Source: an uncultured Methanosarcinales archaeon (lineage in GTDB: Archaea > Nanobdellota > Nanobdellia > Woesearchaeales > JACJVV01). Taken from it: a stretch of 64,000 nucleotides of DNA. This document shows, in pieces, positions 631-22,485 of this stretch. The notes beneath the pieces were generated by a model. It did no database searches. It saw nothing but the letters and a program-made list of their open reading frames with translations, and was not told the DNA's origin. A program made the translations under genes and the position numbers. The DNA lies in contig CAZOOV010000008.1 in the NCBI GenBank assembly GCA_964581515.1, forward strand, positions 24,570 to 88,569, read 5' to 3'. Numbering within the stretch: position 1 is the first letter of the stretch; each line of letters starts with the position of its first letter.

Positions 631-957
631 TTACTCTATAGGGGTTGTATGGGTGGCCATATTATTTTTTTTCTCTTCAATATTTTTCAAGAAATATTGA
701 AGGCAATCTTTCCCGCAGAAAGTTGCCTTCTTCTTGAAATCTTCTGATCCGAAGATTAATGTCTGGGTTGTGCTGCTATGCGGGTCAATATCAGTATCAC
801 ACGTCGTGCAATACGTATGATGCTGTTTTTGCCTCTCCTTAATCTCGTTCTCTATAAATTTAGTTAGGTGTATGCCACCGTGATCAAGATCTTTTTTTAT
901 TTTCAGAAGTTCGTAATAATCAATTGTATGAATGATGTCTTTTAGTCTTTTTTGCAT
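631..957 (-). CDS. small hypothetical protein with CxxC...CxxxC (zinc-ribbon-like)
   Basis: 108-aa ORF; cysteine pairs CTTC and CGKDC; no recognisable family. Confidence 0.4.
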   Translation of the reverse strand: MQKRLKDIIHTIDYYELLKIKKDLDHGGIHLTKFIENEIKERQKQHHTYCTTCDTDIDPHSSTTQTLIFGSEDFKKKATFCGKDCLQYFLKNIEEKKNNMATHTTPIE

Positions 958-999
958 CTTTTACGCACCTCTTTATGATATTGCCTTAATGAAAAAATA

Positions 1000-1215
1000 A
1001 GAGGGGGTGTTGGCGCACCCTCCCCTCAGCAGTGAACTCCTGCATTCTGCAGAAGTCACCCCTCATCTTTTGGCAAATTCCAAACATGAAAGAGGGATGT
1101 GTTTTGGCACATCCCTCATGAATGAAATTTTGCAATTTCATCCATAGTCCTTGCGGACAAGGATGAAATTTTGCAATTTCATCCATCATCTAATTTTTCC
1201 TCTTTTTCCTGAGTC
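1000..1215. repeat. GC-rich cluster of perfect hairpins plus two direct copies of a 24-nt palindrome-containing unit
   Basis: Perfect 10-bp stem gagggatgtg/cacatccctc (1092-1117). 24-nt unit atgaaattttgcaatttcatccat at 1122-1145 and 1163-1186, each containing inverted arms ggatgaaat/atttcatcc. The two copies are separated by hairpin tccttgcggacaagga (1148-1163). Further hairpins follow at gggtgttggcgcaccc and agtctcgccagagact. Local GC is far above the flanks. Confidence 0.6.
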
Positions 1216-1697
1216 TCGCCAGAGACTTTAAATGTGAAATTTAATTTTGATTATTGTTTATGGTCGTTGAGTTTTTCAAACTCAACATACCACCTATTTT
1301 TCTTCTGATCGAATTGAAACACAACATGGTATTTTTTTTTCTTGTCAAGTGAGAATAACAAAGGCATCGGGATAGTTGTCTCAAAACTGGATCCTCGTTT
1401 GTAAAGTTTTCTTTTGAATTCAATCATCTTTGTTGTCTCTGTTTATACTTATTTTTTAGCTTTATTTTATATTATTTTATTTATATATATTTATACTTAT
1501 ATATAAACTTTTCTAATATAATTTATCTTATTTTATTTCTAATATATCTTTCTATTTATTAATTTTTTTATACTTATTTATTTATTAATAAAAATACTTA
1601 TATTTTAATTCTTTTTATTTATTTTGTCACTTTAAAGTGATTACAAACCAAAATCTTTATAAATAAGTTGTAACTACTTAGTGACAATATAGGATAT

Positions 1698-8765: not shown

Positions 8766-9968
8766 CTATTCTGAAGATGGTGTTGTTTCATCTTCATTTG
8801 TTTCACGACGGATAACTTTTACAGCGTCCATCTTGAGTGTGATTGGAATAGGTACAGCAGCTTCAAGAAGTTCTACTACAACTTCTTCTTTGCCTTTGTC
8901 TATCCTTATGATCTTTGCATTTTCACGCTTGAATGGTCCAGAGATTATCTCTACAATATCGTTTTGCTGTATATTTACTTCTCTTTTTACTTGTTCAAGC
9001 ATATGTTCGATCTCACTATATTGAATCTCATTTGGTAATATTCCTCTTGCATAAGGTATTCCAAATGCTGCTTGTTCTGCATCTCCTTTGTTTTCTGCTT
9101 CAATGAAGATGTAACCACGCATTCCATGCGCTCTTATTACAGAATATACTTTGAAATTTTTCTTTTCAGCATTTGATGTTAAGAAGTCCATTACTTGATC
9201 TTCTCTGTTTGCTGTTGTTCTTAGTGCATAAATATGAGTTTTTAAACCATCTGTATCTTCTTTTTCTTCTTCTTCTTTTGGTTTTTCTTCTTCAACTGGA
9301 GCTTCTTCTTTATCGCTCTCTTTAAGCTCATCTATCAATTGTTCATTCTCATCAACATCTGAGACTTCTTCAGTTTTATCTTCTTTTGGTTTTTCTTCTA
9401 CTTCTTGTTGTGGTTCTTCAATAGGAGTTTCTTCTTTTTTCTCCTCTGGTTTAGGAATATCTTCAGAAATTTCTTCAACTGGAACTTTTTTTGTTTCTAC
9501 TTCTTCAGTTTTTTCTTCTTTCACTTCTGGTTCTTCTTCTTTTGGAAGTTCATCAGTAGTTTTTTCTTCAACAGGCTCTTCTTGTTTTATTTCTTCTTGA
9601 ACTTGTTCTTCTGTCTCAACAGGTTTCTCTTCCACTTCTTGTTGTGGTTCTTCAATAGGAGCTTCCTTTGTTTCTTCTTCAGCAGGCTTTTCTTCAACAG
9701 GTTCTTCTGATTTTGCTTCTTCTATTTTTTCTTCAGTTTCTTTTTGTTGTTCTACTTGTTCTTCTGCTCTTTTAATTTGCTGCATTTCAGGTTCATCTCC
9801 TTGAGTTTTCTCGACGTCTTTTTCTATTTCTTCATCGATTTTTTCCAGGTTTTCATCAACCTCTTTTATTTCCTTCTCTTCTTCCTTTATCTCTTCGTCA
9901 AGTTTTGAATCAGAATCTTCATTATCTTTTAAATCAACAGGTTCTTGCTCTTTTTTTTCTTCTTCCAT
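8766..9968 (-). CDS. spt5: transcription elongation factor Spt5 (NusG-like) with ~240-aa acidic low-complexity N-terminal extension
   Basis: C-terminal 150 aa carry NGN and KOW regions (THIYALRTTANREDQV...MRGYIFIEAE...GPFKRENAKIIRIDKGKEEVVVELL). N-terminus is an E/K/P repeat region with internal nucleotide repeats. Start is 22 nt from the secE stop, supporting the long form. Confidence 0.8.
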   Translation of the reverse strand: MEEEKKEQEPVDLKDNEDSDSKLDEEIKEEEKEIKEVDENLEKIDEEIEKDVEKTQGDEPEMQQIKRAEEQVEQQKETEEKIEEAKSEEPVEEKPAEEETKEAPIEEPQQEVEEKPVETEEQVQEEIKQEEPVEEKTTDELPKEEEPEVKEEKTEEVETKKVPVEEISEDIPKPEEKKEETPIEEPQQEVEEKPKEDKTEEVSDVDENEQLIDELKESDKEEAPVEEEKPKEEEEKEDTDGLKTHIYALRTTANREDQVMDFLTSNAEKKNFKVYSVIRAHGMRGYIFIEAENKGDAEQAAFGIPYARGILPNEIQYSEIEHMLEQVKREVNIQQNDIVEIISGPFKRENAKIIRIDKGKEEVVVELLEAAVPIPITLKMDAVKVIRRETNEDETTPSSE

Positions 9969-20928: not shown

Positions 20929-22485
20929 TTAATTTATGAAGCCTTCTATAACCATCTTTTCTGCATATTTTGCAGGTTCTTTTATTGCTTCTTGTGTGAT
21001 TCTTATGTGGGATTGCATTTTAAATCCTACATCAATTAAGTCTTCTATATGACATGTTGTAGTTCCTTGTATGATACTTCTTACTTCCATTGAATTATTA
21101 AGCATAGTTTCATTAATTAGTTCTGTTGATGCTTGTGGGTCTATACTTAATTTTACTTTATATTGACTTTCAAATTCTCTACAGAAATCACGTAAATCTT
21201 GTTGCATAGTATATATTCTTTCTTTTACCTTTTCTGGTTCAAGCAAGAAATGTATTCCATATGATGCTGCTGCTCTTCTGAATCTTTTTGCTATATCAAT
21301 TTTTTTTAATTCTCCCATATATACACCAACTCTAGTTTCATATTTCTTTCTTACAAAATCTTTTTGATTAGTATAAGTTATTACTTTTTCTGGTTCTTCA
21401 CTTCTTAGTTTTGGTGGATTTTGTTCTAAATAGTAATTTAATGTTTTTTGTGGGTCTTGGACGAGTTCAGGAGTTACCAAGAGTTCTCTACAACTCATTG
21501 AAGGCATACTATAAAGGAAAGGATATAATGCGTTATCAATCACTTCATGCAGCCCTCTTGCACCCATTCTTAGATCAATTGCTTTTTGCGCTAATACACC
21601 TAATGCATCTTCTTCAAATTCTATATCAATCCCATATGCACCAAACTCCAGTTGTTTATTTTGGATGACAGGAGAATTTTTCATGCTAAGTATGCTACCC
21701 AATTGCTCAACATCTAATTCATCAAGTTCTGATATGAAACTTATCCTTCCTAAGAATTGACTGATGAAACCATAATTTTCTAAAGCTTTTTTTACAGGTA
21801 CTTTATCTGTAACTGCACCATAACCTAAACTCTTTTTTTCAGTCTGGAGTCCGTCAAATGCTCCGCTAAGAATAAAAAATATATCGCTTGTGTTTAATGT
21901 GACTTCTTCTACTTTTCGTTCTTCTCTATAATTTACATACATTTCAGTCCCTTGAAAAATTCTAAGTAATTCTTCTTGTACTGATTTTCCTGTGATATCT
22001 TTACCAAATCCATCTGATGACGCTGCAATCTTATCTATTTCATCCAAATAGACAATTCCTAATTGAGCAATAGCTGGTATCTGGTTTGCTCTATCAAATA
22101 ATTTCTGGAACATGCCTTCTGTACTTCTTCCAACATAACCTGCTTGTGTATATTGGGTAGAATCAGTGATGTAATACGGGACTTTTAGTAATTTTGTTGC
22201 AAGTTCAAGCATATAGGTCTTACCAGAACCTGTTGGACCCATGAATAAGAGAATTGGCTTTGGTAGATGGTCATTATCTATTCCCATCGCCTCTTTATAC
22301 TGTAATTTCTTGTAATGTGAACAGAGGGCTGTTGCAAGTGTAATTTTTGCTTCTTCTTGCCCTACAACAAATTGATCGAGATATAGTTTGAATTCCATGG
22401 GTCTTAAGTCAAATTCCATTAAGTTCATGAATTCTCTTGCCATGTATTTTCTATTCATTATACATGTTTTAAATATTTGTATCAA
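20929..22485 (-). CDS. ClpX/HslU-like AAA+ ATPase (no N-terminal zinc-binding domain; extra C-terminal ~150 aa)
   Basis: LYLDQFVVGQEEAKITLATALCSHYKKL, Walker A LLFMGPTGSGKTYM, Walker B LGIVYLDEIDKIAASS, and sensor GARGL match the ClpX-type unfoldase family. No ClpP or HslV gene adjacent. Confidence 0.7.
   Translation of the reverse strand: MIQIFKTCIMNRKYMAREFMNLMEFDLRPMEFKLYLDQFVVGQEEAKITLATALCSHYKKLQYKEAMGIDNDHLPKPILLFMGPTGSGKTYMLELATKLLKVPYYITDSTQYTQAGYVGRSTEGMFQKLFDRANQIPAIAQLGIVYLDEIDKIAASSDGFGKDITGKSVQEELLRIFQGTEMYVNYREERKVEEVTLNTSDIFFILSGAFDGLQTEKKSLGYGAVTDKVPVKKALENYGFISQFLGRISFISELDELDVEQLGSILSMKNSPVIQNKQLEFGAYGIDIEFEEDALGVLAQKAIDLRMGARGLHEVIDNALYPFLYSMPSMSCRELLVTPELVQDPQKTLNYYLEQNPPKLRSEEPEKVITYTNQKDFVRKKYETRVGVYMGELKKIDIAKRFRRAAASYGIHFLLEPEKVKERIYTMQQDLRDFCREFESQYKVKLSIDPQASTELINETMLNNSMEVRSIIQGTTTCHIEDLIDVGFKMQSHIRITQEAIKEPAKYAEKMVIEGFIN

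What the first reader, a model, noticed from the sequence alone, without database searches (positions are those of the whole stretch)
1000..1215. GC-rich cluster of perfect hairpins and a duplicated 24-nt palindromic unit upstream of a small zinc-ribbon gene
In ~200 bp: a perfect 10-bp/6-nt-loop hairpin (gagggatgtg...cacatccctc); two direct copies of atgaaattttgcaatttcatccat (each internally an inverted repeat ggatgaaat/atttcatcc) separated by a tccttg-cgga-caagga hairpin; and further stems (ggtgttggcgcacc, agtctcgccagagact). GC content is far above the flanks. Either a structured non-coding RNA or a twin-operator array upstream of 631-957 (minus strand). The 67-aa ORF predicted here is probably an artefact of the GC island.
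Basis: seen in the sequence. Interest (0 to 1): 0.5.

Follow-up and report, generated by a model that had tools for sequence, protein, structure and literature searches.

The report
Conserved structured RNA spacer in archaeal operon
The hairpin cluster is real and is this genome's enlarged copy of a previously undescribed, conserved, folded RNA segment lying between two small genes of Woesearchaeota (DPANN archaea), most likely a terminator-containing regulatory spacer and not a pair of DNA operator sites.

Summary
All the hairpins and the duplicated 24-mer are present at the stated coordinates and are far beyond chance. The region (958-1250) is the spacer between two co-oriented minus-strand genes, a 58-aa gene and a 108-aa zinc-ribbon gene. 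The pair is conserved across Woese-/Nanoarchaeota and is usually tightly adjacent.

Fourteen lineages, all with a 108-aa protein at least 56% identical to the window's, carry the same ordered module on the gene strand:
- hairpin A, presenting an invariant UGGCGAGA;
- a purine-rich ribosome-binding site (most members);
- an invariant AUGAUGGAUGAA forming the 5' arm of hairpin B;
- a GC hairpin followed by a U-run.

The RNA-level, gene-strand reading rests on four things: stems that covary, G·U pairs found only on the gene strand, GNRA/UNCG loops on that strand, and variable half-site spacing. These argue against DNA operators.

The "twin" unit is a duplication of hairpin B seen only in this genome's population. 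The 67-aa ORF has no homologues; only its start is conserved. Rfam has no match.

Best reading: a cis-acting intercistronic/3'-UTR attenuator-like element. The mechanism is inferred, not shown. Moderately interesting as a new archaeal RNA motif.

The parts
1251..1427 (-). 58-aa gene, the first gene of the unit. It has a promoter-like AAAAAATAAGTATA box about 20 nt upstream and no Shine-Dalgarno sequence.
   Evidence: ORF. The family has more than 1000 clusters at 65-80% identity in Woese-/Nanoarchaeota. It lies upstream of the 108-aa gene in about 35 loci. Promoter context.
1212..1227 (-). Hairpin A (AGUCUC-UGGC-GAGACU), carrying the invariant box UGGCGAGA at 1214-1221.
   Evidence: The box is invariant in 13 of the 14 members; L100 has GGGCGAGA. 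The helix is 93% paired with G-C->A-U and C-G->U·G changes. In L007 and L099 the whole box sits in a loop closed by a different stem.
1199..1209 (-). Purine-rich ribosome-binding-site-like tract GGAAAAAGAGG.
   Evidence: The full tract is present in 9 of 14 members. The same kind of AAAGAGGTG motif precedes ordinary genes in these genomes. It can pair with the U-run after the terminator in minimum-free-energy folds.
1178..1189 (-). Invariant box AUGAUGGAUGAA. It gives the start codons of the non-conserved upstream ORF, UGA stop codons in the other two frames, and the 5' arm of hairpin B.
   Evidence: Invariant columns TGATGG.TG.A in 13 sequences. ORF 986-1189.
1161..1184 (-). Hairpin B, copy 1 (GGAUGAAAUU-GCAA-AAUUUCAUCC). 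The loop is a GNRA tetraloop on this strand.
1148..1163 (-). Small hairpin UCCUUG-UCCG-CAAGGA (UNCG-type loop on this strand) between the two B copies. Specific to this genome.
   Evidence: No counterpart in relatives.
1118..1145 (-). Hairpin B, copy 2 (AUGGAUGAAAUU-GCAA-AAUUUCAUUCAU). This is the lineage-specific duplicate and directly abuts the first terminator-like hairpin, as hairpin B does in relatives.
   Evidence: dG is -12.8 on the gene strand and -6.2 on the reverse complement.
1082..1117 (-). Terminator-like hairpin T1 (GAGGGAUGUG-CCAAAA-CACAUCCCUC) plus tail UUUCAUGUUU.
   Evidence: Top-ranked terminator-like site in the first 20 kb. Equivalent GC hairpin plus U-rich tail in all 14 members.
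1067..1085 (-). GUUUGGAAUUUGCCAAAAG, a small hairpin/segment containing GCCAA. Similar to UUUGGAAUUGCCAAAAUUCC in L100 and to GCCAA-loop hairpins in L007 and L099.
1032..1059 (-). Hairpin GUGACUUCUGCA-GAA-UGCAGGAGUUCAC, part of the second module.
991..1027 (-). Terminator-like hairpin T2 (GAGGGGAGGGUG-CGCCAA-CACCCCCUC) plus U-run UUAUUUUUUC. The loop CGCCAA is complementary to UGGCG of box A.
   Evidence: second-ranked site. The YGCCAA loop is conserved while the stem covaries (6 of 10 pairs with double changes) in L007, L089, L090, L099 and L100. GCCAA enrichment.
631..975 (-). Shine-Dalgarno sequence (GAGGUG, 967-972) and the 108-aa zinc-ribbon gene (631-957). There is no canonical TTTATAWA box between T2 and the ATG.
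986..1189 (-). 67-aa ORF running through all the hairpins. It is not a conserved protein.
   Evidence: Only a self-hit in 5.8 billion proteins. No Pfam, NCBIfam or PADLOC match. The equivalents in relatives are 4-67 aa and unrelated beyond M-M-D-E/G (read from the sequences).

Best explanation
The region is the transcribed, minus-strand spacer of a conserved Woesearchaeota gene pair (58-aa gene, then 108-aa zinc-ribbon gene). It is a member of an undescribed family of structured mRNA elements.

The family module, in 5'->3' order:
1. Hairpin A, displaying an invariant UGGCGAGA.
2. A strong ribosome-binding site (most members).
3. An invariant AUGAUGGAUGAA (start codons, plus UGA in the other two frames) that forms the 5' arm of hairpin B.
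4. A GC-rich hairpin followed by a U-run.

The window's copy has hairpin B duplicated, an extra small hairpin, and a second terminator-like module.

Proposed mechanism (inferred):
- Transcription starts at the 58-aa gene promoter.
- The GC hairpin and U-run stop most transcripts, or define a stable 3' end for them. The very highly conserved 58-aa product is therefore made in excess.
- The Shine-Dalgarno-led 108-aa gene, which has no canonical TATA box of its own here, is expressed only from read-through.
- The two invariant boxes are recognition sites that set the level of read-through. They could act through a trans-acting protein (possibly one of the two gene products), through ribosome loading at the short upstream ORF, or both.
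- A loop-loop pairing between UGGCG of hairpin A and the conserved CGCCA(A) loop of the terminator hairpin could lock the fold.

Shown: the conserved module, its strand, its hairpins, and the operon context. Inferred: termination, read-through control, loop-loop pairing, and the identity of any trans factor.
For: Context:
- The organism is an archaeon (thermosome, Spt5, FtsZ). Homologues of the 108-aa protein are named Woesearchaeota or Nanobdellota.
- The 58-aa and 108-aa genes are adjacent and co-oriented in about 35 loci. The spacer is usually 0-60 nt, so this is an operon.

Family:
- Fourteen members share the order A, RBS, B, GC hairpin and U-rich tail.
- A covariance model built on 5 of them recovers 13 at E <= 7e-6 and the fourteenth (L099) at E = 0.0016 in the wider search. 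It finds nothing else significant in the window or in about 90 other loci.
- Invariant boxes: TGGCGAGA and TGATGG.TG.A.

RNA level and strand:
- All 14 B hairpins fold, and each is more stable on the gene strand than on the reverse complement (for example -12.8 against -6.2 kcal/mol).
- 24 of 165 pairs are G·U.
- Stem positions 10-13 show three to five pair types each, for example AU/UG/CG, UA/AU/GC/CG and UA/AU/CG.
- Helices A and B are 91% paired, against 38-53% when the partners are slid.
- The terminator stem has 6 of 10 pairs with double compensatory changes in 5 sequences, while its loop stays YGCCAA. The covariation score is reached by 1/500 shuffles.
- On the minus strand the loops are GCAA (GNRA, twice) and UCCG (UNCG).
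- Whole modules fold with z = -3.9 to -8.

Terminators and promoters:
- T1 and T2 are the two best terminator-like sites in the first 20 kb, both on the minus strand.
- The 108-aa gene has an SD but no TTTATAWA box, unlike most genes of the window. The 58-aa gene has a conserved promoter-like box and no SD.
- In L100 a divergent gene separates the pair, and the element stays attached to the 58-aa gene. This marks the hairpin and U-run as a transcript boundary.

Loop complementarity: GCCAA occurs 14 times in the 14 spacers against 3.2 +/- 1.7 in shuffles (0/500), nearly always in hairpin loops. CGCCA occurs 9 times against 1.0. It is not a general feature of hairpins in the window.
Against: - There are no transcript data, so termination, read-through and 3' ends are unobserved.
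- Archaeal termination is generally driven by oligo-U tracts without a need for hairpins (my knowledge). Several members have weak U-runs (L050, L092, L096). The hairpins may therefore serve stability or protein binding and not termination.
- In L005, L006, L094, L099 and L100 an AT-rich stretch with TATA-like boxes follows the terminator. There the 108-aa gene probably has its own promoter, and the element is a 3'-UTR, not a leader.
- The upstream ORF is 4-67 aa and stops at inconsistent places. Five members lack a good RBS. A uniform ribosome-mediated attenuation mechanism therefore does not fit all members.
- The proximal 9 bp of hairpin B show only one-sided changes. Real covariation lies in the distal part, which was scored from single-sequence folds anchored on the conserved arm.
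- Six members have no GCCAA loop. The proposed loop-loop pairing has no covariation to test it.
- The 14 sequences are related, so the enrichment statistics overstate independence.
Confidence: 0.5

Rival explanations
1. A separate small non-coding RNA gene (trans-acting sRNA, or a processed 3'-UTR-derived sRNA). It would be transcribed or processed from just after the 58-aa gene and end at the hairpin and U-run. Its conserved single-stranded or loop sequences (UGGCGAGA, the anti-start arm UUCAUCCAU) would pair with other RNAs, for example start regions reading AUGGAUAAA/AUGGAUGAA such as that of the 108-aa gene.
For: - The element ends in terminator-like hairpins.
- It stays with the 58-aa gene when the pair is split (L100).
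- The invariant loop sequence suggests recognition in trans.
- The 3' arm of hairpin B is complementary to the AUGAUGGAUAAA-type start of the 108-aa gene in L005, L006, L007 and L099.
- L092 and L095 carry AGAUGAUGGAUG upstream of the 58-aa gene too.
Against: - In L050 and L094 hairpin A starts 0-6 nt after the 58-aa stop codon, and in L096 the ORF runs through it. There is no room for an independent promoter.
- No canonical TATA box lies in the window's 30-nt gap.
- The window's own 108-aa gene start (AUGCAAAAA) lacks the complementary sequence.
- No other target or copy is visible in 64 kb.
Confidence: 0.17
2. Evolutionary debris without regulatory function. The original SD and start of the 108-aa gene (AUGAUGGAU...) was left behind when terminator-type hairpins and a new start were inserted or duplicated between the two genes. 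The window's extra copies are further slippage duplications. Only the transcription stop matters.
For: - The ancestral state is tight coupling.
- The upstream SD and start box resembles the real gene start in a lineage-specific way. L050 has AAAGAGGCGAAAT...GATGGA twice; L007 and L099 have GATGGATGAA twice.
- Modules are repeated a variable number of times (1-3).
- The upstream ORF peptide is not conserved.
Against: - Two boxes of 8 and about 12 nt are invariant across lineages whose flanking 108-aa protein has diverged to 56-70% identity. Meanwhile the neighbouring stems change by compensatory substitutions. Neutral debris would have decayed.
- The loop sequence YGCCAA is conserved over covarying stems.
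Confidence: 0.13
3. DNA-level regulatory site(s). The palindromes (twin 24-mers), or the invariant boxes TGGCGAGA and GATGATGGATGAA, are operators for a transcription factor controlling the 108-aa gene.
For: - The repeats are perfect palindromes in this genome, 41 bp (about 4 helical turns) apart.
- Invariant primary sequence is what a protein-binding site looks like.
- The neighbouring small proteins have unknown function and could bind nucleic acid.
Against: - Only one copy exists in all 13 relatives.
- Half-site spacing varies from 7 to 14 nt, and G·U-type substitutions destroy the DNA palindrome but keep the RNA stem.
- The sites lie 125-230 bp upstream of the ATG and upstream of two terminator-like hairpins. 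They are not over a TATA box or transcription start.
- No further copies exist in 64 kb.
- Hairpin A keeps pairing through UCUC->UUUU, which works only in RNA.
Confidence: 0.06
4. The 67-aa ORF (986-1189) encodes a real small protein, and the structure is incidental.
For: - It has a strong RBS and double AUG.
- It is called as a gene in one metagenome annotation (L003).
Against: - There are no homologues and no family match.
- The repeat copies are 41 nt apart, so they fall in different reading frames.
- ORFs from the same start in relatives are 4-67 aa with unrelated sequence.
- The distance from box A to box B is not constant modulo 3 (read coordinates).
Confidence: 0.02

Closest known systems
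Bacterial intrinsic-terminator attenuators and leader regions (leader-peptide attenuators such as trp/his; ribosomal-protein operon leaders)
   Same: - A structured RNA ahead of a gene that ends in a GC hairpin and a U-run.
- A short upstream ORF with its own RBS.
- Conserved recognition sequences next to covarying stems.
- A setting among small, housekeeping-type genes; the pair sits by the L11 and IF5A genes in several loci.
   Different: - The host is an archaeon, where hairpin-dependent attenuation is not an established mechanism (my knowledge).
- The upstream ORF peptide and length are not conserved, and no regulatory codons are evident.
- No alternative antiterminator pairing was identified.
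- The element can behave as a 3'-UTR of the upstream gene (L100).
Archaeal ribosomal-protein/L7Ae-type autoregulatory mRNA sites (L1 in Methanococcus, L7Ae k-turn in its own 5'-UTR; from my knowledge)
   Same: A small structured mRNA site with invariant nucleotides displayed on a hairpin near a start codon, in an operon of small conserved proteins. This is a plausible target for one of the encoded proteins.
   Different: - No k-turn could be drawn: there is no tandem G·A with a 3-nt bulge.
- No rRNA mimicry was tested.
- The two proteins have no recognised RNA-binding domain. Foldseek gives only weak eS21-like hits for the 108-aa protein (E about 0.1, TM 0.3-0.45) and nothing for the 58-aa protein.
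Type III toxin-antitoxin RNA repeats (ToxI/ToxN)
   Same: Direct repeats of a short structured unit, then a terminator hairpin, then a small protein gene on the same strand.
   Different: - There are only two copies, and only in this genome; relatives have one.
- The repeat covers 29 of 41 nt, not a full tandem unit.
- The downstream protein has no PADLOC or ToxN-like match.
Box C/D sRNA
   Same: AGAUGAUGG resembles a C box (RUGAUGA). Weak sub-threshold Rfam hits to plant C/D snoRNAs were seen.
   Different: - All hits are far below the gathering scores (20.9 against 50 bits, and similar).
- There is no conserved CUGA D box or terminal stem in the alignment.
- The box is Watson-Crick paired inside hairpin B.
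Kissing-loop folds such as the purine riboswitch (P2/P3 loop-loop) or regulatory kissing complexes
   Same: Two hairpin loops with conserved, mutually complementary sequences (UGGCG and CGCCA) flank a central hairpin. The purine tract and U-run can form a closing helix in minimum-free-energy folds.
   Different: The pairing is only inferred, is absent from 6 of 14 members, and has no covariation. No ligand pocket or junction conservation was identified.

Membership tests
Any Rfam 15 family | A covariance-model score at or above the family's gathering threshold. | tested here: not met
   No match at gathering over the whole window. The best sub-threshold hit is LhrC at 29.7 bits against 110. 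There is no hit with E <= 0.1 in 12 related loci. No tRNA or tmRNA was found.
Intrinsic (hairpin + U-run) terminator / attenuator | A GC-rich stem-loop immediately followed by a U-rich tract on the transcribed strand, downstream of a gene or leader. | tested here: met
   T1 (1117-1092) and T2 (1020-1005, extended to 1027-1001) are the top two sites in 20 kb. The equivalent is present in all 14 members. The stem covaries.
Intrinsic (hairpin + U-run) terminator / attenuator | Transcripts actually end there, and read-through is regulated (an alternative antiterminator structure, or a factor or ribosome dependence). | not testable with these tools
   No transcript data are available. No conserved alternative pairing was found. 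The upstream ORF stop positions are inconsistent.
DNA operator array (dimeric transcription-factor sites) | A palindrome with fixed half-site spacing, conserved in orthologous promoters, placed over or next to the core promoter. | tested here: not met
   Spacing varies from 7 to 14 nt. G·U-type changes are present. Relatives have a single copy. The location is 125-230 bp upstream of the ATG, behind two terminator-like hairpins.
Type III toxin-antitoxin (ToxIN-like) | At least 2 exact tandem repeats of a 34-45-nt unit conserved across homologous loci, followed by a ToxN/AbiQ-family endoribonuclease gene. | tested here: not met
   The repeat is 29 nt of a 41-nt period, is specific to this genome, and has no PADLOC hit.
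Box C/D sRNA | C (RUGAUGA) and D (CUGA) boxes brought together by a terminal stem to form a k-turn, with guide regions between them. | tested here: not met
   There is no conserved CUGA. The Rfam snoRNA hits are below threshold.
CRISPR array | At least 3 direct repeats of 24-48 nt separated by unique spacers of similar length. | tested here: not met
   There are two repeats separated by 12 nt.
Dispersed repeat / MITE | Multiple copies in the genome, terminal inverted repeats, and patchy presence among close relatives. | tested here: not met
   No other copy exists in 64 kb by BLAST, pattern or covariance model. The position is syntenic in 14 lineages. The rest of the genome was not available.
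Protein-coding gene (67-aa ORF) | Homologues with a conserved sequence and reading frame. | tested here: not met
   Self-hit only. The reading frame is not preserved among relatives.

The most novel reading that the evidence does not exclude
The module is a genuine regulated transcription attenuator or riboswitch-like sensor in a DPANN archaeon. In this reading it is a three-helix fold: the purine tract and U-run form a closing helix, and hairpins B and C are held together with hairpin A by a UGGCG:CGCCA loop-loop contact. Its formation, controlled by a protein, a ribosome at the start-stop box, or a small ligand, would decide whether RNA polymerase stops before the 108-aa gene. That would be hairpin-type attenuation in Archaea, and a handle on the function of a very widespread, uncharacterised 58-aa/108-aa gene pair next to the ribosomal L11 cluster.
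Probability: 0.15. Interest if true: 0.8.

Novelty: new variant of a known kind. Interest (0 to 1): 0.5.

Why it matters
Very few cis-regulatory RNAs are known in Archaea and essentially none in DPANN lineages, none of which are studied in pure culture.

This element is a compact, well-defined candidate. It has two invariant boxes, three covarying hairpins, and 14 members. It sits between two uncharacterised small genes that are conserved across Woese-/Nanoarchaeota; the 58-aa family alone has more than 1000 sequence clusters.

The element gives a concrete handle for three things:
- asking how gene ratios within archaeal operons are set;
- asking whether hairpin-assisted termination operates in these organisms;
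- guessing the function of the two proteins, for example through RNA-binding tests.

For annotation, it shows that the 66/67-aa ORF called here is spurious. It also shows that N-terminally extended models of the 108-aa protein (P0002, P0003, P0017, P0020) arise from reading through the element.

Tried and rejected
- **Rfam and tRNA scans.** Rfam was run at gathering and at permissive thresholds on the window and on 12 relatives, and ARAGORN was run once. Nothing was found.
- **Further copies of the 24-mer or any part of the region.** A search of the 64-kb window found none, so there is no visible regulon or dispersed repeat.
- **MAFFT and RNAalifold on the whole module.** The alignment put the 3' arms out of register and predicted almost no structure. 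I replaced it with a covariance-model alignment, an anchor-based pair table, and a sub-alignment of five similar members.
- **IMG/VR scan with TGGCGAGA...TGATGGRTGRA.** It gave 62 hits, about the number I estimate by chance, and almost all lie in coding sequence. The exception is a giant-virus-like contig (L106) with TTGGCGAGAC followed by a 55-nt tandem repeat starting AGATGATGGATGAA. The covariance model scores it at only 14 bits, E = 0.19. I left it as an unexplained coincidence.
- **Function of the two proteins.** I searched Pfam, NCBIfam and PADLOC, PDB sequence searches, and AlphaFold models with Foldseek. The 108-aa model (pLDDT 84) gave only weak eS21-like hits. The 58-aa model (pLDDT 66) gave nothing. 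My initial impression that the 58-aa protein is AbrB-like is not supported by any tool.
- **Other structural readings considered and dropped.** K-turn or C/D box, T-box-like UGGN:NCCA pairing, H/ACA, a CsrA-type GGA site, a sarcin-ricin-like GAGA loop, and L11-site mimicry were each considered from the sequence. None had its defining features, or none could be tested.
- **Literature searches.** They found nothing on Woesearchaeota riboswitches or archaeal leader-peptide attenuation.
Full report
**Observation.**
- A perfect 10-bp, 6-nt-loop hairpin lies at 1092-1117.
- Two exact copies of a 24-mer lie at 1122-1145 and 1163-1186. Shuffles gave 0 matches, and there is no other copy in the window even with 3 mismatches. 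The repeat extends to 29 nt at 93% identity with 41-nt spacing.
- Each copy is itself a hairpin.
- A tccttg/caagga hairpin lies between the copies.
- Further stems lie at 1001-1027 and 1212-1227.

The 251-nt stretch folds much better than shuffled sequence on both strands, with z = -8.05 on the minus strand and -6.97 on the plus strand. GC is raised mainly at 1001-1100 (0.53 against about 0.3).

**Context.** The window is from an AT-rich (33% GC) archaeon encoding a thermosome, Spt5 and FtsZ. Homologues of the neighbouring proteins are labelled Woesearchaeota or Nanobdellota.

The region is the 293-nt spacer between two minus-strand genes: a 58-aa gene (1251-1427) and the 108-aa gene (631-957).
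- The 108-aa protein is a real family with invariant Cys50, Cys53 and Cys85 and a mostly conserved Cys81.
- The 58-aa protein belongs to a very large family of more than 1000 clusters at 65-80% identity.
- The two genes are adjacent and co-oriented in about 35 independent loci.
- In most lineages the spacer is 0-60 nt or the genes overlap. The pair is therefore ancestrally a tightly coupled operon, often next to the L11 and IF5A genes.

**A conserved module.** In every examined locus where the 108-aa protein is at least 56% identical to the window's and the 58-aa gene is adjacent or nearby, the spacer is long and structured. These loci are the window, L005, L006, L007, L050, L089, L090, L092, L094, L095, L096, L098, L099 and L100. 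All share one architecture on the gene strand:
1. Hairpin A, carrying UGGCGAGA.
2. In 9 of 14 members, the purine tract GGAAAAAGAGG, which is the usual ribosome-binding context in these genomes.
3. The box (R)UGAUGG(A/G)UG(A/G)A, forming the 5' arm of hairpin B.
4. A GC-rich hairpin followed by a U-rich tail.

UGGCGAGA and UGAUGG.UG.A are invariant in the 13-sequence alignments. L100 has GGGCGAGA.

A covariance model built from five members finds 13 members at E <= 7e-6 and the fourteenth (L099) at E = 0.0016. It finds nothing else significant in the window or in about 90 other loci. Rfam has no counterpart.

**RNA, not DNA, and which strand.**
- *Hairpin B.* It folds in all 14 instances. It is always more stable on the gene strand than on the reverse complement, and 24 of 165 pairs are G·U. 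Beyond the sequence-conserved first nine pairs, the stem continues with different base pairs in different lineages. Position 10 is AU, UG or CG. Position 11 is UA, AU, GC or CG. Position 12 is UA, AU or CG. As a result the 'half-sites' GGAUGAA and UUCAUCC are 7-14 nt apart.
- *Formal pair counts.* On the model alignment, 91% of cells are paired, against 38-53% when the partners are slid. Changes in the proximal pairs are only one-sided, and there is one G-C->A-U swap in hairpin A.
- *Hairpin A.* It keeps pairing through UCUC->UUUU (L089, L090), which works only in RNA. In L007 and L099 the whole box is presented in a loop by a different stem. The octamer itself, not the stem, is therefore the conserved object.
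- *Terminator hairpin.* Its stem shows 6 of 10 pairs with double compensatory changes among five sequences, while its loop stays YGCCAA.
- *Loops.* On the window's minus strand the loops read GCAA (twice) and UCCG, which are GNRA and UNCG tetraloops. On the plus strand they are UUGC and CGGA.

These points make a DNA operator reading unlikely and fix the functional strand as the gene strand.

**What is special in the window.** Relatives have one hairpin B. The window, and the identical contigs L001-L004 from the same population, has hairpin B twice with a private UCCG hairpin between the copies. It also has two terminator-like modules: T1 at 1092-1117 and T2 at 1001-1027 with U-run 991-1000. 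Removing one 41-nt period restores the family consensus exactly, as read. L005 and L006 also carry a second module. The 'duplicated palindromic unit' is therefore a lineage-specific expansion of a conserved hairpin.

**The ORF.** The 67-aa ORF (986-1189) starts at the invariant AUGAUG. It has no homologue except itself and no family hit. ORFs from the same start in relatives are 4-67 aa and unrelated. In L089 and L090 they run in frame into the 108-aa gene, which explains the N-terminally extended gene models P0002 and P0003. The distance from box A to box B is not constant modulo 3. The start site is conserved; the peptide is not. The box also places UGA in the other two frames.

**Terminators and promoters.**
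- T1 and T2 are the two best terminator-like sites in the first 20 kb, both on the minus strand.
- Most genes in the window have a TTTATAWA box about 30-40 nt upstream of the ATG.
- The 58-aa gene has a conserved AAAAAATAAGTATA box and no SD.
- The 108-aa gene has an SD (GAGGUG) and no canonical box between T2 and its ATG.

In the window the 108-aa gene therefore most likely depends on read-through. In L005, L006, L094, L099 and L100, AT-rich TATA-like sequence follows the terminator. In L100 a divergent gene is inserted there while the element stays with the 58-aa gene. The hairpin and U-run thus behave as a transcript boundary, and the element can equally be described as the 3'-UTR of the 58-aa gene.

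**Loop complementarity.** GCCAA is strongly enriched in the 14 spacers, with 14 occurrences against 3.2 +/- 1.7 in shuffles (0/500). CGCCA occurs 9 times against 1.0. Almost all occurrences are in hairpin loops:
- terminator loops in the window (T2), L007, L089, L090, L099 and L100;
- extra hairpins upstream of hairpin A in L007, L099 and L100.

Such loops are not a general feature of the window. (Y)GCCAA is complementary to (U)UGGCG of box A over 4-7 bp, depending on the member. I infer a loop-loop contact, but six members lack it and there is no covariation to test it. The purine tract and the U-run pair with each other in several minimum-free-energy folds, which would close hairpins B and C into a junction. 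This too is only a prediction.

**Mechanism.** I commit to a cis-acting intercistronic/3'-UTR element.
- Its GC hairpins and U-runs stop, or define the stable 3' end of, most transcripts from the 58-aa promoter. Expression of the 108-aa gene is thereby limited to read-through.
- Its invariant boxes are recognition sites for a protein and/or the ribosome that tune the read-through.
- Shown: the conserved, strand-specific structure and its context.
- Inferred: every mechanistic step.

The rivals, in order of weight, are a discrete sRNA, functionless remnants of a duplicated gene start, DNA operators, and a small protein.

**Comparison with known systems.** The element works most like bacterial terminator-containing leaders and attenuators, and like ribosomal-protein operon leaders. 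It is not a member of any Rfam family. It fails the defining tests for type III toxin-antitoxin repeats, C/D sRNAs, CRISPR arrays, operator arrays and MITEs (see the membership table). The proteins gave no functional clue.

**Verdict.** The twin-operator idea is rejected, and the ORF is non-conserved. The element is a new, clade-restricted archaeal RNA motif of a familiar general kind. It is of moderate interest, and would be higher if regulated attenuation were demonstrated.

Noticed in passing
window 1440-1640 (and upstream of the 58-aa gene in L007, L010, L012, L050, L053, L056, L092, L094, L095, L100): The extremely AT-rich (8-16% GC) divergent region upstream of the 58-aa gene holds four copies of ATAAGTAT. 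The box AAAAAATAAGTAT lies 10-30 nt before the 58-aa ATG in nearly all related loci, whereas other genes in the window use TTTATAWA boxes. It is probably a conserved special promoter or operator of this gene.
   Followed up: partly
window 1251-1427 (-): The 58-aa protein belongs to a family of more than 1000 clusters at 65-80% identity across Woese-/Nanoarchaeota. It has no Pfam match, no PDB sequence match and no fold match (AF2 pLDDT 66). It often lies next to the L11 and IF5A genes. It is an uncharacterised, apparently core, small protein.
   Followed up: partly
window 631-957 (-): For the AF2 model of the 108-aa zinc-ribbon protein (pLDDT 84), all top-50 Foldseek PDB hits are eukaryotic ribosomal protein eS21. 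The hits are weak (E about 0.1, TM 0.3-0.45), so they are not evidence of homology.
   Followed up: partly
L106:5270-5595 (also L108, L150; IMG/VR contigs with RNase H1, GT25 and C5-methylase genes): A giant-virus-like contig has TTGGCGAGAC followed 4 nt later by a 5.7-copy, 55-nt tandem repeat. Each unit starts AGATGATGGATGAA and the array ends in a T-run. The 26-nt match to the archaeal boxes is unlikely by chance, but the covariance model scores it at only 14 bits (E = 0.19). Unexplained.
   Followed up: partly
L092:1166-1185 and L095:327-346: The sequence (A)GATGATGGATGTCGATTT also occurs about 45 nt upstream of the 58-aa gene, downstream of its promoter box. The GAUGAUGGAUG box can therefore flank the gene on both sides.
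   Followed up: no
window 8766-9968 (-): The Spt5/NusG NGN and KOW domains occupy only residues 246-366 of a 400-aa ORF. This implies a long N-terminal extension or a mis-called start.
   Followed up: no
window 20929-22485 (-): A ClpX-like AAA+ ATPase (NCBIfam ClpX E = 3.5e-75, below the cut-off) in an archaeal genome.
   Followed up: no
window 988-1003 (+): The reverse complement of the T2 U-run reads GAAAAAATAAGAG. This resembles the AAAAAATAAGTAT promoter box of the 58-aa gene and could in principle drive an antisense transcript across the element. It is not seen in relatives and is probably a coincidence.
   Followed up: no
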